Source: a virus (Duplodnaviria > Caudoviricetes). Taken from it: 64,000 nucleotides of DNA. A model generated the notes under the pieces. The model searched no databases. It was not told the DNA's origin and saw only the letters and a list, made by a program, of their open reading frames with translations. Shown here piece after piece: positions 12,104 to 27,204 of the stretch. The stretch lies in IMG/VR virus record IMGVR_UViG_3300014204_000183, positions 4,155 through 68,154 of that record. One strand, written 5' to 3'. Position numbers and translations under genes: made by a program. Numbering within the stretch: the stretch's first letter is position 1; each line of letters opens with the position of its first letter.

Positions 12104-12137
12104 ATTCTAAGTATACCCCAAAATTTAGACTTGTCAA
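12104..12137 (-). promoter_or_regulatory. sigma70-type promoter, leaderless
   Basis: TTGACA-N16-TATACT-N6-ATG(12103); upstream stop TGA in -35. Confidence 0.9.
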
Positions 12138-12727
12138 GTCAGTCTTTTGCCACGGAAGAAGAAGTCTATCCGGCGTGCGACGACTCTGAGAGGAATGGTC
12201 GAACTCTCATAGGAACGATTCCATGGCCGTGGAAATAATATGCCCTGGCCTCCGTGCCAACGAAACTGGTCTATATTTTTATCACAGTCATCGATAAGTA
12301 ACACGTTTCTTTTTGCCAGTAGATGTTTAGCTTTGCCAACAATAAGTCGATCCACATACCCACTAGGTAAGTTATTTTGAACCCACGTCATTTTTCCAGC
12401 AAATTGCATCGCGGAGTTTATATGGCTCGTAACAATGTACACATTATCAGGGCCGACAAGATGCTCGCACGCGAGTCTCAATGGGATTGCCCACTCGGAC
12501 TGAGGTAAGTTGGCCCAAAACTCATACCCAAATTTGTCCCAGAATGCATCTCCCCGGGGAACCTCAGTCCACCATGATGCTAGTTTCCGTGCAGCCAAAT
12601 GGATATCATAGCCCCATTCCGGTTCGTACCAAGCGACTGCATCGGTGCCGCATCCGTAAGCAGATAGAATTGGTCCGGCGCATTCATTAAGTACATCATC
12701 GAGATCTAATAAAATAGTGTTAATCAT
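12134..12727 (-). CDS. HAD-family 5'(3')-deoxyribonucleotidase
   Basis: LLDLDDVL motif I, IVTS, K, LLIDD motif IV. Confidence 0.85.
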   Translation of the reverse strand: MINTILLDLDDVLNECAGPILSAYGCGTDAVAWYEPEWGYDIHLAARKLASWWTEVPRGDAFWDKFGYEFWANLPQSEWAIPLRLACEHLVGPDNVYIVTSHINSAMQFAGKMTWVQNNLPSGYVDRLIVGKAKHLLAKRNVLLIDDCDKNIDQFRWHGGQGILFPRPWNRSYESSTIPLRVVARRIDFFFRGKRLT

Positions 12728-12734
12728 ACTCGGC

Positions 12735-12929
12735 TTACTCCCAACTCCCTCCCCACTGGTCGATGTATCTATCTGGATGTTCCAACTGTGCTGGCGAAGT
12801 ACCATTTGATCGATCGAATCGCGGATCTTCAGACCAGCCACAATCGCACCCGTAGGGCCCATAGATCATTCCAACACCCACGTCAACTGAGTCCCTAGAA
12901 CACGGTAAGTTATAGATTGGACAGTTCAA
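12735..12929 (-). CDS. hypothetical Cys-containing protein
   Basis: VDVGVGMIYGPYGCDCGWSED. Confidence 0.55.
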   Translation of the reverse strand: MNCPIYNLPCSRDSVDVGVGMIYGPYGCDCGWSEDPRFDRSNGTSPAQLEHPDRYIDQWGGSWE

Positions 12930-16129: not shown

Positions 16130-16771
16130 TTATCTTGGCTTGCCATAGAATATATAGGGGATTGTTAAAGCCCGTTCTTTCAGTTCATCATCAATGTTAA
16201 GCGTTTCAATAAACTTACGAACTTGAACCGTGCAACTCCCGTGTGCCCCCACGTCATCAGTGCCAAATAGCACTGCGACCAGTGTTCCATGCTCGTCAAA
16301 GATGGGGCCACCACTGTCACCCTGTCTAGCTTTGGCCGTGCATTCTAGCATATCACTTGGCCAGTCGCCAAGTGGACTAACATACTTAACCAGTATACCA
16401 CTAGATTCTTTATAATCTCCGCTACCAAAGCCGCAGACCGTAAGAGGATCTCCAATCTTTGGTCTGTTCGTACTGATATTATAAGTTGGGAATTTAGACG
16501 GGGCTATTAAGGCAGCTAGATCCCAGATCTTATTTGATCCAACTAATTTGACTGGCTTTCCATTTATCTTAAATAGGTGGCCATCTTGTATAACGTGATT
16601 AGCTGTAATAATCAATGATTCAGTAGTGCTTGCAACACAGGTTCCGGTCCCCCAGGACGTGCTGCCAATTTCCACAGACTCGACACGAACAATGGAGGTA
16701 GGTGCCGAGCACGGTCCAGGGCAAGGGCACTGTGCCATAAGTAAAACAGCCAGTAGTATACTCATTGACAA
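16130..16771 (-). CDS. secreted trypsin-like serine protease
   Basis: Signal-like N-terminus; TANH, DLA, GDSGGP triad. Confidence 0.9.
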   Translation of the reverse strand: MSMSILLAVLLMAQCPCPGPCSAPTSIVRVESVEIGSTSWGTGTCVASTTESLIITANHVIQDGHLFKINGKPVKLVGSNKIWDLAALIAPSKFPTYNISTNRPKIGDPLTVCGFGSGDYKESSGILVKYVSPLGDWPSDMLECTAKARQGDSGGPIFDEHGTLVAVLFGTDDVGAHGSCTVQVRKFIETLNIDDELKERALTIPYIFYGKPR

Positions 16772-17029: not shown

Positions 17030-17839
17030 TCAATAGTTTAGGATTAAAAGTTCGGTTACTCGCTGCTTTGTGCTATTTGTAGTCCCACAATTAGTGTGAT
17101 CTCTCTCGATAATGCGAAAGTCTTTATATAAATCTCTAATCAGTGGATGCTTATCGTAGCTTAAACAAACTCTATGCTTACAATTTTTTACCCGCTCTGC
17201 TAGTAGCACGTGATCGTCGATGGTAAAGTTATGCTGGTATAGTTGCGATGATGGTGTTAGATTCGTATTGACAACATACGGCGGATCTATATAGATCCAA
17301 ACCTTGTTTCCAGGAGCCACCAACAAGTGATTGTAATCTCGGCATGTGATCTTAACTCGTTTTAAACACCCTGCGGCATCTTCCAATTTTGTTGTCTTAA
17401 TGATATTCCAGCCATCTGGATGACTGTAGTAAAGTCGTGACGGAATATTATAATTTACTCGACCCGCAAAGACCGTACGATTAAGAAAAAAGTATCTTAA
17501 AGCTGGGTCCATCTCTTCATTGTGTTTGAATCGATCAAAAATACGCCCAAGTCGAGCATTGTATCTACCACTAAGTAGCTCGCCAGAGCAGGCAGGTTTT
17601 ATTTGCTTACACGATTCAATAAACCCGTCATTGCGCTTTAGCGCCCTATACACGGCGATTAAGTCGGGGTGAATATCATTTATCCACCTAGTAAGTTGAG
17701 TGTCCACTGAAAAGAATACCCCACCCCCGCCGACAAATGGTTCGCGGTACTCAAGTGTATCAGCCGGCATCTGAGCAAGTATCCAATTACGAATACCGGC
17801 TTTTGACTTTCCGCCAGGGTAGCGAAAGATATTAGGCAT
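17030..17839 (-). CDS. dam: DNA adenine methyltransferase (Dam/D12 class)
   Basis: FRYPGGKS, EPFVGGGGV, YIDPPY. Confidence 0.9.
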   Translation of the reverse strand: MPNIFRYPGGKSKAGIRNWILAQMPADTLEYREPFVGGGGVFFSVDTQLTRWINDIHPDLIAVYRALKRNDGFIESCKQIKPACSGELLSGRYNARLGRIFDRFKHNEEMDPALRYFFLNRTVFAGRVNYNIPSRLYYSHPDGWNIIKTTKLEDAAGCLKRVKITCRDYNHLLVAPGNKVWIYIDPPYVVNTNLTPSSQLYQHNFTIDDHVLLAERVKNCKHRVCLSYDKHPLIRDLYKDFRIIERDHTNCGTTNSTKQRVTELLILNY

Positions 17840-18992: not shown

Positions 18993-19319
18993 TTACACCT
19001 TGTTAATTTCCTCGTCTGACCAACAGAACTTACATAGTAATTCACCATCGTGGCCATAGACAAGCAACGCCAAAAAGAAGACCGGCCCACCACTCCATGG
19101 GTCAGCTTGTAAACAATCATCTGCCCATCCACCGTCCTTTAAATGGTGCCGAACTAATTGGTACTCAGTGCCAAACATGCCTGTATAAGTACCAATTACT
19201 TCCGTTTTAAACGGGCGCATATAGTTACAATGTGGGCATAGTGTAGGCTCCTTTACATTTTCATTCAAAAACAAAACTGCATCATCAGGGAGCCCGGCAA
19301 ATTGATCTTGTCTACTCAT
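18993..19319 (-). CDS. hypothetical protein
   Basis: 108-aa ORF with CPHC. Confidence 0.6.
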   Translation of the reverse strand: MSRQDQFAGLPDDAVLFLNENVKEPTLCPHCNYMRPFKTEVIGTYTGMFGTEYQLVRHHLKDGGWADDCLQADPWSGGPVFFLALLVYGHDGELLCKFCWSDEEINKV

Positions 19320-19333
19320 TTAATTAACCTCAT

Positions 19334-20020
19334 TTAATTAACCCCATTAAAATACAACTCCCGTGTCGAGAACCGTCGAAATCGCTGCAACCATTGCCGA
19401 ATCACTGCATCGTCCAAGTGAGTCGAGGCGCTCCAGCCAATCGGCAGGCTTATTAGCTCTTCGATAAACTCTGCCGTTGGAAGTCCACCTAGTTGCTCGG
19501 CAAGGCGTTGACAAACGACACTCAAGTTGTTCGTGACCGTCGTTTGTGGTGCCGGGGGCTGCCACTTCGGCACAGACAAAGATTCTAGTCCGTCTATAGT
19601 CAGCCCCCATATCACCCGCCCGCACTTTGAAAATGCTCGGGCTGTAGCCAAGAATTTCAAGCCCGTTGGCGAGATAATCCGCACTTGTGATTGCTTCTTT
19701 CTTAGCCGAATGTGAGAACTGCCAGAGGATATAGCTCGGCTCCACTGTTTGCACAAGTTGAATGAGTTTGTCTGTAAAATTTGTAGTGGGCTCCTTTGAA
19801 GTGGCTGTGGCTTCTGTGATTCCAGCGATGCAATCCACGCATCGACGCCAAGGTCTCCCGTCGAAGGTGTAGAAGTTGTCCCAGATAGGAGCCGCTTGTA
19901 GGGACTCCTCTCTGAATCGGTAATCAAGTATTTTAATGCTTCGGGGATTAGCTTCCACATAACATACCGGGGTCCAAAAATGAAGTTTTTGTAATGGGAG
20001 ATCGAAACTGCCGATGCCAC
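19334..20020 (-). CDS. overlapping alternative-frame polypeptide carrying C5-MTase motif IX-like segment (beta-type subunit)
   Basis: 228 open codons inside the MTase gene; GGLPTAEFIEELISLPIGWS...RQWLQ; true start uncertain. Confidence 0.55.
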   Translation of the reverse strand: MASAVSISHYKNFIFGPRYVMWKLIPEALKYLITDSERSPYKRLLSGTTSTPSTGDLGVDAWIASLESQKPQPLQRSPLQILQTNSFNLCKQWSRAISSGSSHIRLRKKQSQVRIISPTGLKFLATARAFSKCGRVIWGLTIDGLESLSVPKWQPPAPQTTVTNNLSVVCQRLAEQLGGLPTAEFIEELISLPIGWSASTHLDDAVIRQWLQRFRRFSTRELYFNGVN

Positions 20021-20048
20021 TATTAATTGATAAATATCTATACATCAA
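19347..20048 (-). CDS. DNA cytosine-C5 methyltransferase homologue, catalytic PC and ENV motifs absent
   Basis: SINSGIGSFD motif I, YVEAN, GADYRRTRIF, RLDSLG motif X; GITEA replaces GFPCQ. Confidence 0.75.
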   Translation of the reverse strand: MMYRYLSINSGIGSFDLPLQKLHFWTPVCYVEANPRSIKILDYRFREESLQAAPIWDNFYTFDGRPWRRCVDCIAGITEATATSKEPTTNFTDKLIQLVQTVEPSYILWQFSHSAKKEAITSADYLANGLEILGYSPSIFKVRAGDMGADYRRTRIFVCAEVAAPGTTNDGHEQLECRLSTPCRATRWTSNGRVYRRANKPADWLERLDSLGRCSDSAMVAAISTVLDTGVVF

Positions 20049-20209: not shown

Positions 20210-20551
20210 TTAAGAACTCTTAACTGCAACTTTCGTGCCATAGATGCGTTTGCGGCGTTCTTCAGTGGCATCATAGTGCATTACATAATCGAGAATCATT
20301 GTTAAAAGAGACCCCTTAATCCAGTTATACTGTCCAGGGGGTCCGCCACAGAATTGTATTGGTCCAATTGTGGCCGCGGGGATATCTTGTGGTATCTCGA
20401 AACAATATTTAAACGGTGTTGTGACCTTAGAGCCAGCGACACCATCTATAATAATCTGGTCTGCAAGAGCACCCATTTCCGATAGGATGTCAACAGCCTC
20501 GCTCGCTGTCAGATTCGCAAACTCGCGTTGGTATTCTTCTAATGATTTCAC
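20210..20551 (-). CDS. FxGGPP-family protein
   Basis: IQFCGGPPGQYNWIKGSLLTMILDYV. Confidence 0.8.
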   Translation of the reverse strand: MKSLEEYQREFANLTASEAVDILSEMGALADQIIIDGVAGSKVTTPFKYCFEIPQDIPAATIGPIQFCGGPPGQYNWIKGSLLTMILDYVMHYDATEERRKRIYGTKVAVKSS

Positions 20552-21195
20552 GGGTACGCCTTTAACGCCTTATGAACCTTGGGCAGATCATTTTTTACAT
20601 ACGCATAGAGAAAGTGATCGATTAACATTGTCAACAATGTTCCATCCCACCACTTAGGGGCTGGCGGGCCACCATAGAATTGAACCGGCACGTCACCGGC
20701 CAAATCATTAAAAAGACTCGTATCATCATACAGATCAACAAGTTGGAGGCGTTGACCACCGAATCCTATGTATGCCTTGTCAGCCCCGAAGGTCCAACAT
20801 AGTAATTCCAGTGCATCGAGTGTCGATATTTGACCAAATCGTTTGCGAAGCATACTAAAGTTAATTTGTTTCATATCCCCCTCTACCAAGTCTGTGTATG
20901 CACCTAGAATTGCCCAGTCATAGAGTATCACGTCACATAGGTATGTTAAAAGTGATCCCGTGTGCAGTCCTCGGTTATCAGGTGGACCGCCTATAAATTC
21001 AATAGGCCCCACTGCCGACGCTGCCACCCCTTCCATATAACTGGCACCTAAGAAAGTTTGTACTTCTCGCCTACTTTGAGTGTTTACAAAACAGATGCAA
21101 CTATGTCCAAGTCCAAATTCCTGGCAAAGTAGTTCAACTGCCTCGCTGGCACTTACCTCTTCAAGTTCGTTAAGGACATGCGTGTAAATCGCCAT
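20548..21195 (-). CDS. FxGGPP-family protein, two tandem domains (leaderless)
   Basis: FIGGPP..GSLLTYLCD and FYGGPP..GTLLTMLID. Confidence 0.8.
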   Translation of the reverse strand: MAIYTHVLNELEEVSASEAVELLCQEFGLGHSCICFVNTQSRREVQTFLGASYMEGVAASAVGPIEFIGGPPDNRGLHTGSLLTYLCDVILYDWAILGAYTDLVEGDMKQINFSMLRKRFGQISTLDALELLCWTFGADKAYIGFGGQRLQLVDLYDDTSLFNDLAGDVPVQFYGGPPAPKWWDGTLLTMLIDHFLYAYVKNDLPKVHKALKAYP

Positions 21196-21229
21196 ATCTT
21201 AAATATACCACGTTTTCCCTAATTGTCAA
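21196..21229 (-). promoter_or_regulatory. sigma70-type promoter, leaderless
   Basis: TTGACA-N16-TATATT-N6-ATG(21195); upstream stop TGA in -35. Confidence 0.9.
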
Positions 21230-21570
21230 CCGATCCAACCCATTGACAACCCATCTGGTAGTTGTTGTGGTAGTAGAAATTTATTTACTACGTCTAAATT
21301 GCCGTTATAATGGGCTGTAAGAATTCTATCGATTAGCATGGTTAATAGGGTTCCAGTGAATGTTGTGTATTTCATAGGTGGCCCACCATAAAATCGGCAC
21401 GGCACTGACTTTGCCTTGGCTAATCCGAAAGACGTGCTATGTAATTCCCATACTGCAAAAGGCGAGCTACCTTTATACGATGGGATATGTATTAGATCCT
21501 TGTGTGCATTTAATGCCTTCATACTTTGTACAAATTGTATCACCGTATGGTCAGCCAGCGCCGAGTACAA
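21226..21570 (-). CDS. FxGGPP-family protein
   Basis: CRFYGGPPMKYTTFTGTLLTMLIDRI. Confidence 0.8.
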   Translation of the reverse strand: MYSALADHTVIQFVQSMKALNAHKDLIHIPSYKGSSPFAVWELHSTSFGLAKAKSVPCRFYGGPPMKYTTFTGTLLTMLIDRILTAHYNGNLDVVNKFLLPQQLPDGLSMGWIG

Positions 21571-21575
21571 GATGT

Positions 21576-21947
21576 CTAGAATGGTGGTGCAGCTAGTTGT
21601 CGTTGTTGGTTCAATAATTGACGCACCTTTTCAAAGCCTTCCATCTGAATTTTAGCAGAAACACAGTCAACAATAAAGCTATACACGGTGCCATCATACC
21701 ATTTACCGCGTCCCACAGGGCCCCCATAGAAGCGAATACGCACACGATTAGCCGGTCTCCCAGTGGCTGTGCCCGCGTAAATCTGTCGGATATTTGTAAC
21801 GGCAATTGAATAGGCCTCGCCGCCTATCAAAAAGACATCCGTATCTTGATGCCCAAGTGCATAGGCAATTAGGTAAGCACAGTCGAGGTCAACAGGTGCA
21901 AAATGCCCCAGCAACGACTCGGCCTGTCTTAGATGATTCTTTTTCAT
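21576..21947 (-). CDS. FxGGP-family protein
   Basis: IRFYGGPVGRGKWYDGTVYSFIVDCV. Confidence 0.8.
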   Translation of the reverse strand: MKKNHLRQAESLLGHFAPVDLDCAYLIAYALGHQDTDVFLIGGEAYSIAVTNIRQIYAGTATGRPANRVRIRFYGGPVGRGKWYDGTVYSFIVDCVSAKIQMEGFEKVRQLLNQQRQLAAPPF

Positions 21948-22300
21948 ACGTTAAGACTCATAAACCGTCCAAGTACCGCTATATTTCCGAAGGACACGGC
22001 CTGCATAATTCGATCAACAAGCATAGTAAGAAGGCTGCCCTCATACCATTTTCGGTACCCAGGAGGTCCGCCCCAAAAGGTTATTGGTGCAAGGTCACTA
22101 GCTCTCAACATCTGAGCCCCTGGCAAGCTATTAATCAGTGCGACTGGGGTAGTGCAGAGCCCGTTCACCTCGATCTCTGTCAGACCTTCATCAAAGCTAT
22201 AGTTGAGGTAGTTCACAACCCGTGTTGCTGATAATTCTTTGAGTTTTTCTTTCAATTGATTACAAAGAATCTCGTCATTTGCCACCATTTTTATCACCAT
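21944..22300 (-). CDS. FxGGPP-family protein
   Basis: ITFWGGPPGYRKWYEGSLLTMLVDRI; start 22300 or 22288. Confidence 0.8.
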   Translation of the reverse strand: MVIKMVANDEILCNQLKEKLKELSATRVVNYLNYSFDEGLTEIEVNGLCTTPVALINSLPGAQMLRASDLAPITFWGGPPGYRKWYEGSLLTMLVDRIMQAVSFGNIAVLGRFMSLNV

Positions 22301-22641
22301 TGAAACCGCCTCTGGGACTTCTGGGGCGTCACAGCCATCAATTGATAAAGATCGCTCAGTGTATGGGAGCACAAGTACTCGTAGATTCTGTCCAGTACTA
22401 ATGTTACTAGGTTCCCTTCGTAGTATGCTAATCTGGTCGGTGGCCCTCCCCAAAACATGAAGTGAGGGGTCTCGACTGCTAGCAACCATTGCACATCTGT
22501 GTTCACCCAGTCTTTGACTCTTAATATCTGTTGATTTAAGTAGATTGTCGTGTCCGACTGGCCCAGAACCGCTAATAAGCTGTAGGCTGCTGGAGCACTC
22601 AATGTGTTTAGCAGCGCCAAAAGATCGTCTGGTATTCTCAT
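22294..22641 (-). CDS. FxGGPP-family protein
   Basis: FMFWGGPPTRLAYYEGNLVTLVLDRI. Confidence 0.8.
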   Translation of the reverse strand: MRIPDDLLALLNTLSAPAAYSLLAVLGQSDTTIYLNQQILRVKDWVNTDVQWLLAVETPHFMFWGGPPTRLAYYEGNLVTLVLDRIYEYLCSHTLSDLYQLMAVTPQKSQRRFQW

Positions 22642-22677
22642 ACATTATAAGTATACACTATTAAATACTACTGTCAA
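22642..22677 (-). promoter_or_regulatory. sigma70-type promoter, near-leaderless
   Basis: TTGACA-N16-TATACT-N8-ATG(22641). Confidence 0.85.
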
Positions 22678-23050
22678 GTCCTTGTAGTTCTTCAATCATT
22701 GTTACCCGTAATGAGTTCTGCTCGGGAGTAATTGGCCTCCACTCAGCAGAGGGGTCGTTTCGTAGTTTAAATAGATTACAGGATAGCCACCGATTACAGA
22801 ATGCGGCCAGATCGGTTGGCTGTACAGCTAATCCATCTGGCACCCATCGTTCAAGATTGACTAGCTCGCAGTGTCGTAAGAAACGTAGCTTATCCTCAGC
22901 AATCCACTTGCGATATTTCTCCTGGTCAGAGTTCTTTAGCACATCAGAAATAAGATCAACTAGGCGATGGGCTATTTCGCTTCTAGCTGGCTCTGCTACT
23001 AGGTCACGTAGCCCTTTGATGAAATCAACTAAGAGATTTAGGTTAAGCAT
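22661..23050 (-). CDS. hypothetical protein
   Basis: 129-aa ORF. Confidence 0.6.
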   Translation of the reverse strand: MLNLNLLVDFIKGLRDLVAEPARSEIAHRLVDLISDVLKNSDQEKYRKWIAEDKLRFLRHCELVNLERWVPDGLAVQPTDLAAFCNRWLSCNLFKLRNDPSAEWRPITPEQNSLRVTMIEELQGLDSSI

Positions 23051-23934
23051 GCGACATCTCCTGGGTATTTAATATGGGCCGACGGCTCTTGTGTCCAATT
23101 ATACTTCCTATAAATATTAGGATATTCGACATTGTTGCCGACGATTGTTAATAGAAATTGAATATCAGGCATGGTCCATTTTGATCGTGTAGGCAAGCCG
23201 CGGTCTCTACAAAATTCACGCCACCGACCATTGGATAGTGGCCCATTATGCAGTATTTTCATAGCCAACCGCCGCTCTTCTCGGAGCAAGAGATATTGCT
23301 GATGAGACTCTTGGATGATTGGTGAATACACCCAATCGGGCTTTGGAAAGACACCTGGGGTATAGAGTTCTCGTAGTACTTGTAACGAGGAGTCTGAGAT
23401 TCCACGATTCTTGCATTCAATAGCTACTGCAATTCCATAGCGAACTAACGACTGGATGTGCCCTCTCCACATCTCGACCGGTCTCGGTCGATAATTAGGA
23501 CTTGATTCAAAATACTTCAGCGTTCGCAAGATCCGGTTACGAGTGTGTTTTAAATCACAGTCTGTAAAACATTGTGCGCAAGCGCGGTAAGAACTGAATG
23601 GCATCCATACTAAATATTTAGGCTTTTGTCGCCGTGTAGGCGCGGGGTTCCAGTCAACCTCGGTGTACTCAATGGCGGCTGTGGGATTTGTCCAAACATT
23701 AGCTGCGATGCCATACGCCTGTCGCATATGCTGGCCAAACCGTTCATATTCGGCAGCACTTGCTTCCGCCTGTAATAACTGGGTCATTCGACTGTCAAGA
23801 GTAACGTAGTCTAGTTCATTTATATCTTCAAAAGTAATCTCCTTCCCAGTGCCACAGTCTATTAGTCGAACACCAACGCCACCAATGGCCCACTCACAGC
23901 GATATTGACGGATATCAAAATGTTCGTAAGCCAA
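23038..23934 (-). CDS. pyrimidine-dimer glycosylase/endonuclease V-like domain (MSMEG_6728 type) with N-terminal extension
   Basis: PVEMWRGHIQSLVRYGIAV..ECKNRG..PDWV..ESHQQYLL. Confidence 0.65.
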   Translation of the reverse strand: MAYEHFDIRQYRCEWAIGGVGVRLIDCGTGKEITFEDINELDYVTLDSRMTQLLQAEASAAEYERFGQHMRQAYGIAANVWTNPTAAIEYTEVDWNPAPTRRQKPKYLVWMPFSSYRACAQCFTDCDLKHTRNRILRTLKYFESSPNYRPRPVEMWRGHIQSLVRYGIAVAIECKNRGISDSSLQVLRELYTPGVFPKPDWVYSPIIQESHQQYLLLREERRLAMKILHNGPLSNGRWREFCRDRGLPTRSKWTMPDIQFLLTIVGNNVEYPNIYRKYNWTQEPSAHIKYPGDVACLT

Positions 23935-24892: not shown

Positions 24893-25471
24893 TTATACTG
24901 ATTGTGCCTGATATAGCCGTTTCCAATCGAAAAATCGCCAGCGGCCCATGGTATCAATCTCACTTGCATGGTCGATATGGCGTGTGTACGCGGCTAGATC
25001 ACTCCAAGTCTCAAAAATCATTTCTTGGGGGATGACTCCGCGGAGCCAGTCTGGTATTGCACGGAGGCCCTGCTCCATATGCAGCAGGATTGGCGCTTTA
25101 CGACGGTTTAGCACCGTCCACTCTTCATGGGTGCCAGTCGAATAGTATCGTAGATCTAAATGTACAATTGCGAAGTCACAAACGTCACACATTCTAAGGT
25201 CAATACAGCGAATCTCTCGCATCTGTTGTGCAAGAGTATCCCAGTCACCAGCTTCTTTTAGCTTCTGCCGGGCTATGTGATCCTCTAAATCTGGGCATTC
25301 ATACCCGGGTAGCATGGGTTTATGGCAGGGGTCGAGAAAGATTAGATTTAGGTCTTTTAGCTCTTCTTGAATACTGGTCCGCCAACCCGTTCCAAAATCT
25401 GGTGATAAATCGATTGGGCCCGCTAGATAAACGCGATTATAGAATAGACGGTTCATACAAACGTTCTCCAA
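24893..25471 (-). CDS. nucleoside 2-deoxyribosyltransferase-like / NMP N-glycosidase family protein
   Basis: VYLAGPID..GWR..FLDP..D..CD..STGTHEE. Confidence 0.75.
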   Translation of the reverse strand: MENVCMNRLFYNRVYLAGPIDLSPDFGTGWRTSIQEELKDLNLIFLDPCHKPMLPGYECPDLEDHIARQKLKEAGDWDTLAQQMREIRCIDLRMCDVCDFAIVHLDLRYYSTGTHEEWTVLNRRKAPILLHMEQGLRAIPDWLRGVIPQEMIFETWSDLAAYTRHIDHASEIDTMGRWRFFDWKRLYQAQSV

Positions 25472-26238
25472 GTATCAAGGGGTGTAGTTATTCTATGGCA
25501 GCCAGATGGCATGTGTATAGGCTTCTCTTTAGGCACACAGAGCATGTTTACGGAGATAGTCCACCCATAGATATTCTCTTCCACCCCATTGAAATTATAC
25601 CGATTATAATAATATGGTAAATGGTAGAATAGGTCGTAGTTCATAGCCCAGAGGCGTTTAATTAACTCGGGAGACTTATCTTCTCGATCATTCTCCATGT
25701 ATAGAATGGGGCGGCAGCGATTAATCGTTTTTAGACCCCCTTCAAGTATCTCGCCTTCCATACCTTCAGCGTCAATCTTTGCAAAATGGAAATGTGACAC
25801 AGTCGAATCAATAGTAACAAGTGGAACAGACTCGCCCCCAGTGCCACCCATTTCGACTGCGCCAAAGTTATTCGGCTGCTCGTAGTCAACCTGTGGCACG
25901 TTCAAGAGCCCTACTGTCCTACCAACACCGACACAATGTGCATATACATTTTGAAGCGAATTAAGCGCAGCATTTGCACAAACTAATTGGAATAGGATTC
26001 GTTGTGGTTCAAATGCGTAAACGCGCCCCTGTGGAACCATCTGTGCCATGGCTACCGTGTGAGCGCCATGATTAGCACCAATGTCTAGGCATACCCAATC
26101 AGGCTGTATAATCCCTCGGAATAGATATACTTCGCCCTCTGAAAATTCGCCATACTTATCTAATGCACCACCAATATACTGGTCATTAGGTAAGAATAAC
26201 ATTTGTCCATAGCGGCATTGCTTTAACTTGGTGGGCAT
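25453..26238 (-). CDS. FkbM-family methyltransferase
   Basis: LDIGANHG, AFEPQ, KIDAEGME, PILYMEN. Confidence 0.9.
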   Translation of the reverse strand: MPTKLKQCRYGQMLFLPNDQYIGGALDKYGEFSEGEVYLFRGIIQPDWVCLDIGANHGAHTVAMAQMVPQGRVYAFEPQRILFQLVCANAALNSLQNVYAHCVGVGRTVGLLNVPQVDYEQPNNFGAVEMGGTGGESVPLVTIDSTVSHFHFAKIDAEGMEGEILEGGLKTINRCRPILYMENDREDKSPELIKRLWAMNYDLFYHLPYYYNRYNFNGVEENIYGWTISVNMLCVPKEKPIHMPSGCHRITTPLDTWRTFV

Positions 26239-26876
26239 AATTCCTCCCATTTTGAAGATCCCAACCGTGTGCATCCTAACTGCAAGAATGTATCGGCCTG
26301 TTGATAAGTACTAATACCACCACTTGCTTTAATCTTTAGTGGCGAATCCTTTATGGCGGTCTTGATTAGTTCGACATCCTCGTAGGTAGCTCCGCCTATA
26401 CCAAAGCCAGTCGATGTTTTGATAAACGATACTCGTGGAACAGACCTAATAAGTAGACAAGCTGATAATATATGGGGTGCAGTTAAATAGCACGTCTCTA
26501 GTATTACCTTTATTGTGATTCGAAGCGGTAGTCGGTCGAGAATGTAGTTTAATTCATTCACTACGTATGGGTAATCACCCTCAATGAACCTTGCATAATT
26601 CATAACAATGTCAAGTTCATCAGCACCATCACGCACAGCCTGTTGTGCTTCTAGTCGCTTTATCTCTGGTGTGTTTGTACCGTGTGGGAAACTAATTACC
26701 GTCGAAATTGGAACCTCAAACTGCGAAGCATATTGCACATCACAAGGTCGAACACATACAGATGCCAAATGCTCGCGGCAAGCTAGGAGACATGCTGACC
26801 GCACCTGGGCAAGCGTGGACGTTGGGTTCAAGACAGCATAGTCTAGGGCTGCGGCAATTTGTTCTTTAGTGTGCAT
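26223..26876 (-). CDS. deoC: deoxyribose-phosphate aldolase
   Basis: VISFPHG, ELDIVMN, KVILET, FIKTSTGF, IKASGGI, RLGSS. Confidence 0.92.
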   Translation of the reverse strand: MHTKEQIAAALDYAVLNPTSTLAQVRSACLLACREHLASVCVRPCDVQYASQFEVPISTVISFPHGTNTPEIKRLEAQQAVRDGADELDIVMNYARFIEGDYPYVVNELNYILDRLPLRITIKVILETCYLTAPHILSACLLIRSVPRVSFIKTSTGFGIGGATYEDVELIKTAIKDSPLKIKASGGISTYQQADTFLQLGCTRLGSSKWEELCPPS

Positions 26877-27204
26877 GGCGTCTCTTTGGTGCAATTTTTA
26901 TGCCATTCGCTTTAACGCAGGCTTGGTAGGCGCGATTATAGGTCTTATAGGGACGCCGTTCATTATCTAACGCATGCTCCCAAAAGCTATTACCGTCTGG
27001 GTTTAGACTTAATCGAAGGGCATAGTATCTAGGAGGTAGTTCCACACCCATGAAGCATTTTCGCCACACTATGCGGTATTTTTTACACTTGGATAGCCAG
27101 ACTTTTCTAAACTTACGGCTTAGTCCTTCTGGATTAAAGCGTGAAGTCAATTTGAATTCAATGTCGGACATCTGGCACCTTTTGATATATTTTCCGACGC
27201 CCAC
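26866..27204 (-). CDS. hypothetical basic protein
   Basis: 112-aa ORF. Confidence 0.6.
   Translation of the reverse strand: MGVGKYIKRCQMSDIEFKLTSRFNPEGLSRKFRKVWLSKCKKYRIVWRKCFMGVELPPRYYALRLSLNPDGNSFWEHALDNERRPYKTYNRAYQACVKANGIKIAPKRRHAH

What the first reader, a model, noticed from the sequence alone, without database searches (positions are those of the whole stretch)
19334..20048. Dual-frame C5-methyltransferase locus that has lost its catalytic motifs
Seen: frame A (19347-20048) has motif I-, VIII- and X-like segments, but GITEA replaces the catalytic GFPCQ and WQFS replaces ENV. A second frame (19334-20020) stays open for 228 codons and ends in GGLPTAEFIEELISLPIGWS...RQWLQ, resembling motif IX of phage C5-MTases. 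Known: M.EcoHK31I is a heterodimer whose beta chain (motif IX) is encoded in an alternative frame inside the alpha gene. Inference: an overlapping-gene MTase of that type, kept intact in both frames yet lacking the Cys nucleophile. It could be a pseudo-enzyme acting as a DNA-binding or base-flipping shield, a SAM sink or a decoy against restriction.
Basis: partly seen in the sequence, partly recalled or inferred. Interest (0 to 1): 0.75.

Follow-up and report, generated by a model that had tools for sequence, protein, structure and literature searches.

The report
Dead two-frame phage cytosine methyltransferase
An uncultured phage keeps a DNA cytosine-methyltransferase gene that is read in two overlapping frames although it lost its catalytic residues long ago, so the two-chain protein probably now binds DNA rather than methylating it.

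Summary
Frame A (19347-20045, minus strand, 232 aa) is a full-length member of a roughly 235-aa phage C5-methyltransferase family. It belongs to a small monophyletic clade of 8 proteins, 52-65% identical. In this clade the FPCQ loop is replaced by a shorter variable linker without Pro-Cys, ENV reads WQ[FL], motif I reads NSGIGS, and the Asn of motif X is lost.

Frame B (+1; 19334-20020) has no stop where 6.7 are expected, whereas 31 other genes of the window have 8-55. It stays open in all five syntenic relatives. It encodes a recognition-domain-like segment and motif IX (EELMGLPIGW).

Codon-position variability and a two- to three-fold drop in frame-A synonymous divergence show purifying selection on frame B in the C-terminal half. 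Frame A is also kept open there. The dual-frame layout is a property of the whole family, including active members, and this scan has noted it on other DNA many times. M.EcoHK31I is the proven precedent.

What is new here is a conserved, catalytically dead lineage that still keeps both frames. The most likely reading is a non-catalytic alpha/beta heterodimer retained for DNA binding. A complex model scored 0.81 against a best control of 0.00. The function is inferred, not shown.

The parts
19347..20045 (-). Alpha chain (frame A), 232 aa plus stop: C5-MTase large-domain homologue lacking the catalytic motifs
   Evidence: The AF2 model has pLDDT 86.4 and has the C5-MTase catalytic-domain fold.
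19334..20020 (-). Frame B (+1) open reading frame, 228 codons from GTG 20020, stop TAA at 19334-19336
   Evidence: It has 0 stops against 6.7 expected. It is open in L005, L008, L009, L010 and L011.
19958..19960 (-). ATG in frame B, conserved in all five clade DNAs (reads MWK over alpha's CYVE). All frame-B stops in relatives lie upstream of it. Candidate beta start.
   Evidence: The Shine-Dalgarno sequence is weak (TGGA about 14 nt upstream).
19682..19684 (-). GTG in frame B, conserved in 6 of 6 sequences at the point where frame-B constraint begins. Alternative beta start, giving a 116-aa chain.
   Evidence: L005 has GGAGG 9 nt upstream; the others have purine- or A-rich stretches.
19562..19684 (-). 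Beta segment VRIISPTGLKFLATARAFSKCGRVIWGLTIDGLESLSVPKW (recognition-domain-like). It is encoded by the same DNA as alpha motifs VII-VIII.
   Evidence: identity in B is 0.67 against 0.63 in A, and frame-A position 1 is more variable than position 3. Contacts alpha residues 138-143 in the complex model.
19430..19489 (-). Beta motif IX-like segment GGLPTAEFIEELISLPIGWS
   Evidence: It aligns with LNPEWVAWLMGWPIGWT of L013, which there precedes motif X in the same frame. In relatives it matches phrog_26627 and phrog_35493.
20007..20024 (-). Alpha degenerate motif I: NSGIGS in place of F.G.GG
19782..19838 (-). Alpha VDCIAG followed by a variable linker (ITEATATSKEPTT) where GFPCQ and the catalytic loop should be
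   Evidence: Identity within the clade is 0.27. pLDDT is 63.
19713..19730 (-). Alpha ILWQFS in place of motif VI (F)ENV, with Glu changed to Gln
19566..19607 (-). Alpha motif VIII retained: GADYRRTRIFVCAE
19377..19418 (-). Alpha motif X remnant LGRCSDSAMVAAIS (the Asn of GN is lost). It overlaps the tail of beta, RQWLQRFRRFS.
19485..19511 (-). Alpha clade-specific conserved STPCRATRW, with invariant Cys183
   Evidence: Its role is unknown.

Best explanation
The locus is a conserved, catalytically inactive descendant of the two-frame phage C5-cytosine methyltransferase family.

Frame A gives an alpha chain. It keeps the large (Rossmann-type) domain fold and motif VIII. It has lost the Pro-Cys nucleophile loop, the Glu of ENV, the Phe of motif I and the Asn of motif X.

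Frame B, on the same DNA shifted by +1, gives a beta chain that carries the recognition-domain-like segment and motif IX, that is, the small domain.

Both chains are made and associate as in M.EcoHK31I. The complex cannot transfer a methyl group. It is kept because it still does something that needs both chains, most probably sequence-specific DNA binding. That could serve as a shield, a regulator or a reader.

Shown here:
- dual-frame conservation;
- loss of the catalytic motifs across a whole clade;
- purifying selection on both frames;
- a retained fold.

Inferred:
- that both chains are translated (the beta start is not settled);
- that they bind each other (model only);
- that the complex binds DNA and does not methylate it.
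For: Family membership and fold.

Loss of motifs in all 8 clade members, against 50 of 60 sampled relatives that have PC[QTV] and E[NQ].

Position in the tree: the clade is monophyletic (SH-aLRT 96) and nested in the DPCQ/RENP subfamily. P0009 is an intermediate with DECQ and RET. End branches of 0.07-0.50 compare with a median of 0.56.

Synteny: the gene sits in the same place in five related phage contigs whose neighbouring genes are 50-80% identical.

Frame B is open: 0-2 stops against 6-9 expected in the five clade genes (P from below 0.0002 to 0.007), and 0-3 against 3.8-11.9 across all ten family genes tested.

Frame B is under selection:
- In columns 191-245, pairwise differences by frame-A codon position are 224/82/120. 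In columns 1-80 they are 214/172/306.
- Frame B identity is 0.70 against 0.58 for frame A at the C-terminus.
- Frame-A pS falls from 0.41-0.79 to 0.17-0.41.

Frame A is also kept open in the C-terminal half: 0 stops against 2.7-4.2 expected if only B were coding.

Alpha motifs VII-VIII and the beta recognition-like segment are both constrained on the same nucleotides. They therefore cannot lie in one polypeptide.

Complex model of alpha with beta residues 85-207: score 0.81, best of 3 controls 0.00. The mark was reached by 58 of 80 solved complexes and 2 of 110 mismatched pairs. The runs agree in at least 75% of contacts and the partner pLDDT is at least 74. This pass may reflect likeness to solved single-chain methyltransferases.

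Precedent: M.EcoHK31I (PMC2836561).
Against: There is no protein-level evidence for either chain.

The beta start is unclear. The Shine-Dalgarno sequence before the conserved ATG is weak. The frame is also stop-free between that ATG and the internal GTG, which neither candidate start fully explains.

The motif IX profile finds no solved structure by sequence. The window's own frame B reaches only E=0.066 against phrog_35493.

DNA binding is not tested. The catalytic loop, which in M.HhaI also contacts DNA (established knowledge), is absent, so binding could be weak.

The contigs are incomplete (51% and 79%), so an active partner enzyme elsewhere cannot be excluded.
Confidence: 0.6

Rival explanations
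1. Non-catalytic partner of an active methyltransferase, in the manner of DNMT3L. The dead alpha/beta pair, or beta alone, pairs with an active C5-MTase of the host or of the unsampled part of the phage, and tunes or redirects its specificity.
For: The catalytic residues are lost while the interfaces are conserved. Natural two-chain assembly is known for M.EcoHK31I. The contigs are only 51% and 79% complete.
Against: There is no PF00145 or second phrog_363 match on the 68-kb contig or on the 105-kb relative. The neighbouring Dam-type MTase (17030-17839) is found only in L005 among the relatives, so it is not a constant partner. Alpha's own large domain remains under selection, which a lone beta adaptor would not need.
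Confidence: 0.15
2. It is still an enzyme with remodelled chemistry. A different nucleophile replaces the lost Pro-Cys, and the protein modifies DNA or another substrate. The candidate is the clade-specific invariant Cys183 in STPCRATRW, which arose in the ancestor shared with P0009.
For: Cys183, Arg184, Arg187 and Trp188 are invariant in the clade. P0009 carries both DECQ and TPCR, a plausible intermediate. Motif II Glu and motif VIII RxR are retained.
Against: Four separate cofactor or catalytic motifs are degraded together: motif I Phe, the motif IV loop, motif VI Glu to Gln, and motif X Asn. L009/P0007 has VAC in place of TPC. The segment has low model confidence (pLDDT about 59). I could not measure its distance to the pocket.
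Confidence: 0.08
3. One trans-frame protein instead of two chains. A programmed +1 ribosomal frameshift joins the N-terminal part of frame A to the C-terminal part of frame B.
For: In L012 and L013, frame 0 stops after motif VIII and the +1 frame continues with the recognition domain, motif IX and motif X. That layout looks like a frameshifted gene. Frame B has no strong start signal.
Against: Alpha motifs VII-VIII and the beta segment VRIISPTG...IDGL are both constrained on the same nucleotides. Frame A is kept open to its end, with a conserved C-terminus. I identified no slippery site, though I made no dedicated search. Frame B is stop-free far upstream of any sensible shift point.
Confidence: 0.1
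4. A decaying pseudogene, with frame B a chance or leftover ORF.
For: The catalytic motifs are lost. The Pfam score is below the gathering threshold (13.8 against 22 bits).
Against: Eight full-length members at 52-65% identity sit in syntenic phages. pN/pS is 0.22-0.61. Both frames are stop-free well beyond expectation. Branches are not long.
Confidence: 0.03

Closest known systems
M.EcoHK31I (E. coli HK31, YGGCCR), heterodimeric C5-MTase (described in PMC2836561)
   Same: The second chain is encoded in another reading frame inside the gene of the first. [quoted passage not shown]
   Different: M.EcoHK31I is active, and its alpha also holds the recognition domain. Here the recognition-like segment lies in the beta frame, the beta frame is open almost from end to end of the gene, and alpha has no catalytic Cys or Glu.
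Two-frame short phage C5-MTases (phrog_363 in frame 0, phrog_1008 in frame +1). Examples: Pseudomonas phage PS-1 PS1_04, Vibrio phage ZQ26 WAP91231, and by size probably the 711-bp Dcm of phage K42 (bioRxiv 10.1101/2023.08.16.553469)
   Same: Same family, same length, and the same +1 frame carrying the recognition segment and motif IX.
   Different: Those members keep GFPCQ, ENV and GN. K42 Dcm methylates CCWGG. The window's clade has lost all three motifs.
The DPCQ/RENP subfamily (L011/P0011, P0012-P0015)
   Same: These are the nearest relatives with intact-looking motifs (33% identity). The clade is nested among them, and the beta frame is well conserved between the two groups.
   Different: They have DPCQ, REN and GN, and their beta ATG lies 4 nt after the alpha ATG behind a single GAGGAG. 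In the dead clade that start is lost, and a conserved ATG lies at alpha codon 30.
Catalytically inactive DNMT-family paralogues used as cofactors (DNMT3L; DRM3, PMC2965745)
   Same: A methyltransferase fold is kept under selection after the catalytic residues are lost.
   Different: Those proteins act with an active paralogue in the same genome. None was found here. They are eukaryotic and single-frame.

Membership tests
C5-cytosine DNA methyltransferase (PF00145) | Catalytic-domain (class I Rossmann-type) fold | tested here: met
   The AF2 model has pLDDT 86.4. Foldseek finds DNMT2, M.HaeIII and M.HhaI at probability 1.0 and TMq 0.55-0.58.
C5-cytosine DNA methyltransferase (PF00145) | Motif IV Pro-Cys nucleophile | tested here: not met
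   The loop is replaced by a shorter variable linker in all 8 clade members.
C5-cytosine DNA methyltransferase (PF00145) | Motif VI ENV glutamate | tested here: not met
   Reads WQ[FL].
C5-cytosine DNA methyltransferase (PF00145) | Motif I F.G.GG and motif X GN (cofactor pocket) | tested here: not met
   Motif I reads NSGIGS and motif X reads LGR. Motif II Glu is kept.
C5-cytosine DNA methyltransferase (PF00145) | Motif VIII Q/H.R.R | tested here: met
   Reads YRRTR.
C5-cytosine DNA methyltransferase (PF00145) | Pfam gathering score | tested here: not met
   13.8 bits against a threshold of 22.
C5-cytosine DNA methyltransferase (PF00145) | Methyl transfer to cytosine C5 | not testable with these tools
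   Needs an assay or methylation-aware sequencing.
Two-chain, two-frame C5-MTase (M.EcoHK31I type) | A second frame inside the alpha gene, open and conserved | tested here: met
Two-chain, two-frame C5-MTase (M.EcoHK31I type) | The second frame carries motif IX | tested here: inconclusive
   The motif and its position match. Relatives' frame B hits phrog_1008, phrog_26627 and phrog_35493. The window's own hit is only E=0.066, and there is no sequence match to solved MTases.
Two-chain, two-frame C5-MTase (M.EcoHK31I type) | Alpha and beta associate | tested here: inconclusive
   Model only: score 0.81, best control 0.00. The mark was reached by 58 of 80 solved complexes and 2 of 110 mismatched pairs. 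The pass may be from likeness to single-chain structures.
Two-chain, two-frame C5-MTase (M.EcoHK31I type) | Both chains are needed for methylation | not testable with these tools
   Activity is not expected here in any case.
DNMT3L-type inactive cofactor | An active paralogue in the same genome | tested here: not met
   No other hit on the 68-kb or 105-kb contigs. Both contigs are incomplete.

The most novel reading that the evidence does not exclude
A phage lineage has turned a two-chain, dual-coded cytosine methyltransferase into a non-catalytic, sequence-specific DNA-binding heterodimer. It keeps about 350 nt of true double coding solely for binding. Loss of catalysis may have been favoured because host defences can sense phage Dcm activity, as retron Ec86 does.
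Probability: 0.4. Interest if true: 0.7.

Novelty: new variant of a known kind. Interest (0 to 1): 0.6.

Why it matters
Two-frame phage cytosine methyltransferases are themselves barely documented. M.EcoHK31I is the one proven case, and this scan has noted many unverified ones.

This clade is a natural experiment. Catalysis was lost long ago (members are only 52-65% identical), yet both overlapping frames are still maintained. This argues that frame B is a real gene, because its coding signature persists in a lineage that no longer has the catalytic residues. It also shows that the alpha/beta assembly has a use beyond methylation.

If it is a DNA-binding pseudoenzyme, it would, to my knowledge, be the first such case among bacterial or phage C5-MTases. 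It would also be a compact, naturally split DNA-recognition module. In addition, it warns annotators that the label 'DNA (cytosine-5)-methyltransferase 1' on these genes is wrong as a statement of activity.

Tried and rejected
The frame-B test therefore rests on five clade DNAs plus L011.
- P0009 and P0010 were not found in viral contigs.

**Searches that found nothing useful**
- Megablast of the region against phage records gave no match.
- Pfam finds nothing in any frame-B product.
- A PDB sequence search with the beta C-terminal profile, and with the L013 +1 product, gave only noise.
- The ESM Atlas gave only sub-threshold hits (0.89) to 59-66-aa viral hypothetical clusters. This is a lead, not evidence.

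**Model that failed**
- AF2 on the 8-sequence alignment failed (pLDDT 37). It worked only with 60 sequences.

**Readings rejected**
- A SAM-sink reading was rejected because the cofactor-pocket residues are degraded.
- A shield covering every site on the genome seems unlikely on stoichiometric grounds (inference).
- A compositional explanation for the open +1 frame was rejected by the 31-gene control.

**Not done**
- I did not use sequencing-run tools, because RNA reads cannot separate the two frames.

**Caveat**
- The careful ML tree did not finish. The quick tree was used instead.

Full report
**What is there.**
The window is part of a 68-kb IMG/VR viral contig, estimated 51% complete, with nearly all genes on the minus strand. 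On that strand two long ORFs overlap almost completely.
- Frame A is 19347-20048. The probable start is the ATG at 20045, which overlaps the stop of the upstream 54-aa gene as TGATG.
- Frame B is 19334-20020, offset by +1.

**Frame A is a real, full-length homologue of a short phage C5-methyltransferase family.**
- It matches phrog_363 'DNA methyltransferase' at E=3e-11. Its Pfam PF00145 score is sub-threshold, 13.8 bits against 22.
- tblastn finds 21 phage records. Among them are the 234-aa and 235-aa enzymes of Pseudomonas phage PS-1 and Vibrio phage ZQ26, which align end to end with it.
- A profile of the family matches M.HaeIII residues 1-160, that is motifs I-VIII.
- With a 60-sequence alignment AlphaFold gives a confident model (pLDDT 86.4). 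Its best structural matches are DNMT2, M.HaeIII, M.HhaI and a prophage MTase, at probability 1.0.

**The catalytic motifs are gone in a whole clade.**
- The 5.8-billion-protein search found seven relatives at 52-65% identity, all 235-237 aa.
- In all eight proteins GGFPCQ is replaced by a shorter, variable linker without Pro-Cys. ENV reads WQ[FL], with Glu changed to Gln. Motif I reads [NH]SG.G[SA]. The Asn of motif X is lost. Motif II Glu and motif VIII RRTR are kept.
- An exhaustive profile search found more than 5000 relatives. Among the 60 I aligned, 50 have PC[QTV] plus E[NQ]. Only this clade and P0010 lack them, and P0009 is an intermediate with DECQ and RET.
- A quick ML tree makes the clade monophyletic (SH-aLRT 96). 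It joins P0009 and P0010 (99), and the whole group is nested in a DPCQ/RENP subfamily (100). Terminal branches are not longer than the family median.
- The gene lies at the same place in five related phage contigs, between an FxGGPP paralogue array and the same small genes. Those neighbours are 50-80% identical.
- This is therefore an old, maintained state and not decay. pN/pS in the N-terminal 75 codons, where frame B shows no amino-acid constraint, is 0.22-0.61.

**Frame B is not a chance ORF.**
- In the window it has no stop where codon shuffles give 6.7 (none of 5000 shuffles had zero). The +2 frame has 17, as expected.
- All 31 other long genes of the window carry 8-55 +1 stops, matching their shuffled expectation.
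- In the four distinct relatives with DNA (L005=L007, L008, L009, L010), frame B has stops only within the first 17 codons. It is open from a conserved ATG (alpha codon 30, reading MWK) to its end. In L011, a 33%-identical relative with intact-looking DPCQ, REN and GN, it has no stop at all.
- The translation is conserved: VRIISPTGLKFLATAR.FSKCGRVIWGLTIDGL, a variable linker, then L.EQLGGLP.PEF.EELMGLPIGW....L....(Y)RQW.Q.FRRFS.

**Both frames are under selection on the same nucleotides.**
- Among the five clade DNAs, pairwise differences by frame-A codon position are 214/172/306 in columns 1-80, an ordinary frame-A pattern.
- They are 155/75/125 in columns 121-168 and 224/82/120 in columns 191-245. 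In those regions frame-A position 1, which is frame-B position 3, varies most.
- Amino-acid identity is 0.65 (A) against 0.50 (B) at the N-terminus, 0.63 against 0.67 in the middle, and 0.58 against 0.70 at the C-terminus.
- Frame-A synonymous divergence drops from 0.41-0.79 to 0.14-0.60 and 0.17-0.41 in the two dual-coded blocks.
- Conversely, if only frame B were coding in the C-terminal half, 2.7-4.2 stops would be expected in frame A. None occurs in any of six sequences.
- Alpha motifs VII-VIII and the beta VRIISPTG...IDGL segment are both constrained and share nucleotides. They cannot be parts of one polypeptide, which favours two chains over a frameshift fusion.

**The layout belongs to the whole family.**
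- The +1 frame is stop-free also in active-looking members: L001, L002, L003, L006, L012, L013 and L016. There it reads the typical ..WGMM.(D/N)G....LLP(T/S)P.. and LNP.F.EWLMG.P.GW elements.
- These +1 products match phrog_1008 'DNA methyltransferase' and the small families phrog_26627 and phrog_35493.
- In L012 and L013, frame 0 stops after motif VIII and the +1 frame goes on through the recognition domain, motif IX and motif X. This fixes the identity of the frame-B motif as motif IX by position.
- In several members (L001, L002, L003, L006, L011, L015, L017) the +1 ATG lies 4 nt after the frame-0 start. In L011 both follow one GAGGAG.
- The scan's notebook shows that this layout was reported before on other DNA (446 notes). 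M.EcoHK31I is the only experimentally proven case. I verified its description in PMC2836561: beta lies entirely in another frame of alpha, alpha holds motifs I-VIII, X and the recognition domain, and beta holds motif IX.
- I found no note of a conserved, catalytically dead clade. Earlier 'dead' cases in the scan were recent breakages.

**How it probably works.**
- In a single-chain C5-MTase the chain leaves the large domain after motif VIII, builds the small domain (recognition domain plus motif IX), and returns with motif X. This is established knowledge.
- Alpha here is the large domain with a short linker in place of the small domain. Beta is the small domain.
- A complex model of alpha with beta residues 85-207 supports binding but does not show it. 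The score is 0.81 and the best of 3 controls is 0.00. The mark was reached by 58 of 80 solved complexes and 2 of 110 mismatched pairs. The runs agree in at least 75% of contacts and the partner pLDDT is at least 74.
- In that model the beta strand VIWGL pairs with alpha 138-143, and the motif IX Trp packs on the motif I helix region. The pass may come from likeness to solved single-chain enzymes.
- With no nucleophile, no Glu and a degraded cofactor pocket, methyl transfer is not expected. What remains selected is the alpha-beta interface, motif VIII and the recognition-like chain.
- I therefore read it as a non-catalytic DNA-binding heterodimer, with about 0.45 confidence for that function and about 0.85 for the dead, dual-coded structure.
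- A possible reason for giving up catalysis is that a phage Dcm encoded by a 711-bp gene triggers retron Ec86 through methylation of its msDNA (bioRxiv 10.1101/2023.08.16.553469). This is a lead, not a test.

**Open points.**
- The beta start is not settled. The candidates are the conserved ATG at 19960 with a weak Shine-Dalgarno sequence, the conserved GTG at 19684 (GGAGG 9 nt upstream in L005), and the GTG at 20020.
- Frame B is also stop-free between the ATG and the GTG, with 1.8-3.4 stops expected per sequence between column 18 and the GTG. This fits an upstream start.
- No active C5-MTase was found on the 68-kb contig or on a 105-kb relative, but both are incomplete.
- The clade-specific invariant Cys183 (STPCRATRW) is unexplained.

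Noticed in passing
window 20210-22645 (-): A tandem array of FxGGPP-type paralogous small proteins lies directly upstream of the methyltransferase gene. It is conserved in the same order in L005, L009 and L010. Another agent has already reported it (e1-5932242).
   Followed up: no
window 17030-17839 (-): A D12-class N6-adenine DNA methyltransferase (PF02086, E=1e-33; phrog_56). It is 80% identical in L005 but has no counterpart in L008, L009 or L010.
   Followed up: partly
window 12134-12862, 23038-23934, 24893-26894 (-): A cluster of nucleotide- or DNA-metabolism-like genes: an NT5C-type 5'-nucleotidase, a Pyr_excise (T4 endoV-like) domain, a weak nucleoside 2-deoxyribosyltransferase-like protein, an FkbM methyltransferase and a DeoC-type aldolase. 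It might bear on DNA modification in this phage.
   Followed up: no
window 18993-19319 (-): A 108-aa protein with a CxxC...CxxC pattern starts 12 nt after the frame-B stop. It is conserved (58-60%) directly downstream of the methyltransferase gene in L005 and L008. It matches no family.
   Followed up: no
L012:221-1439 and L013:2596-3826: In these active-looking relatives, frame 0 ends just after motif VIII. The +1 frame, which is open from the gene start, continues through the recognition domain, motif IX and motif X. The longest ORF (about 400 aa) is therefore the 'wrong' frame for the catalytic half.
   Followed up: partly
P0011-P0015, L011:912-1643: A subfamily of the two-frame methyltransferases has DPCQ in place of FPCQ and RENP in place of ENV. 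The dead clade is nested in it. Whether this variant motif set changes the chemistry is unknown.
   Followed up: no
window 16130-16771 (-): A trypsin-like serine peptidase domain (PF13365, E=4e-15), conserved in all four related contigs.
   Followed up: no
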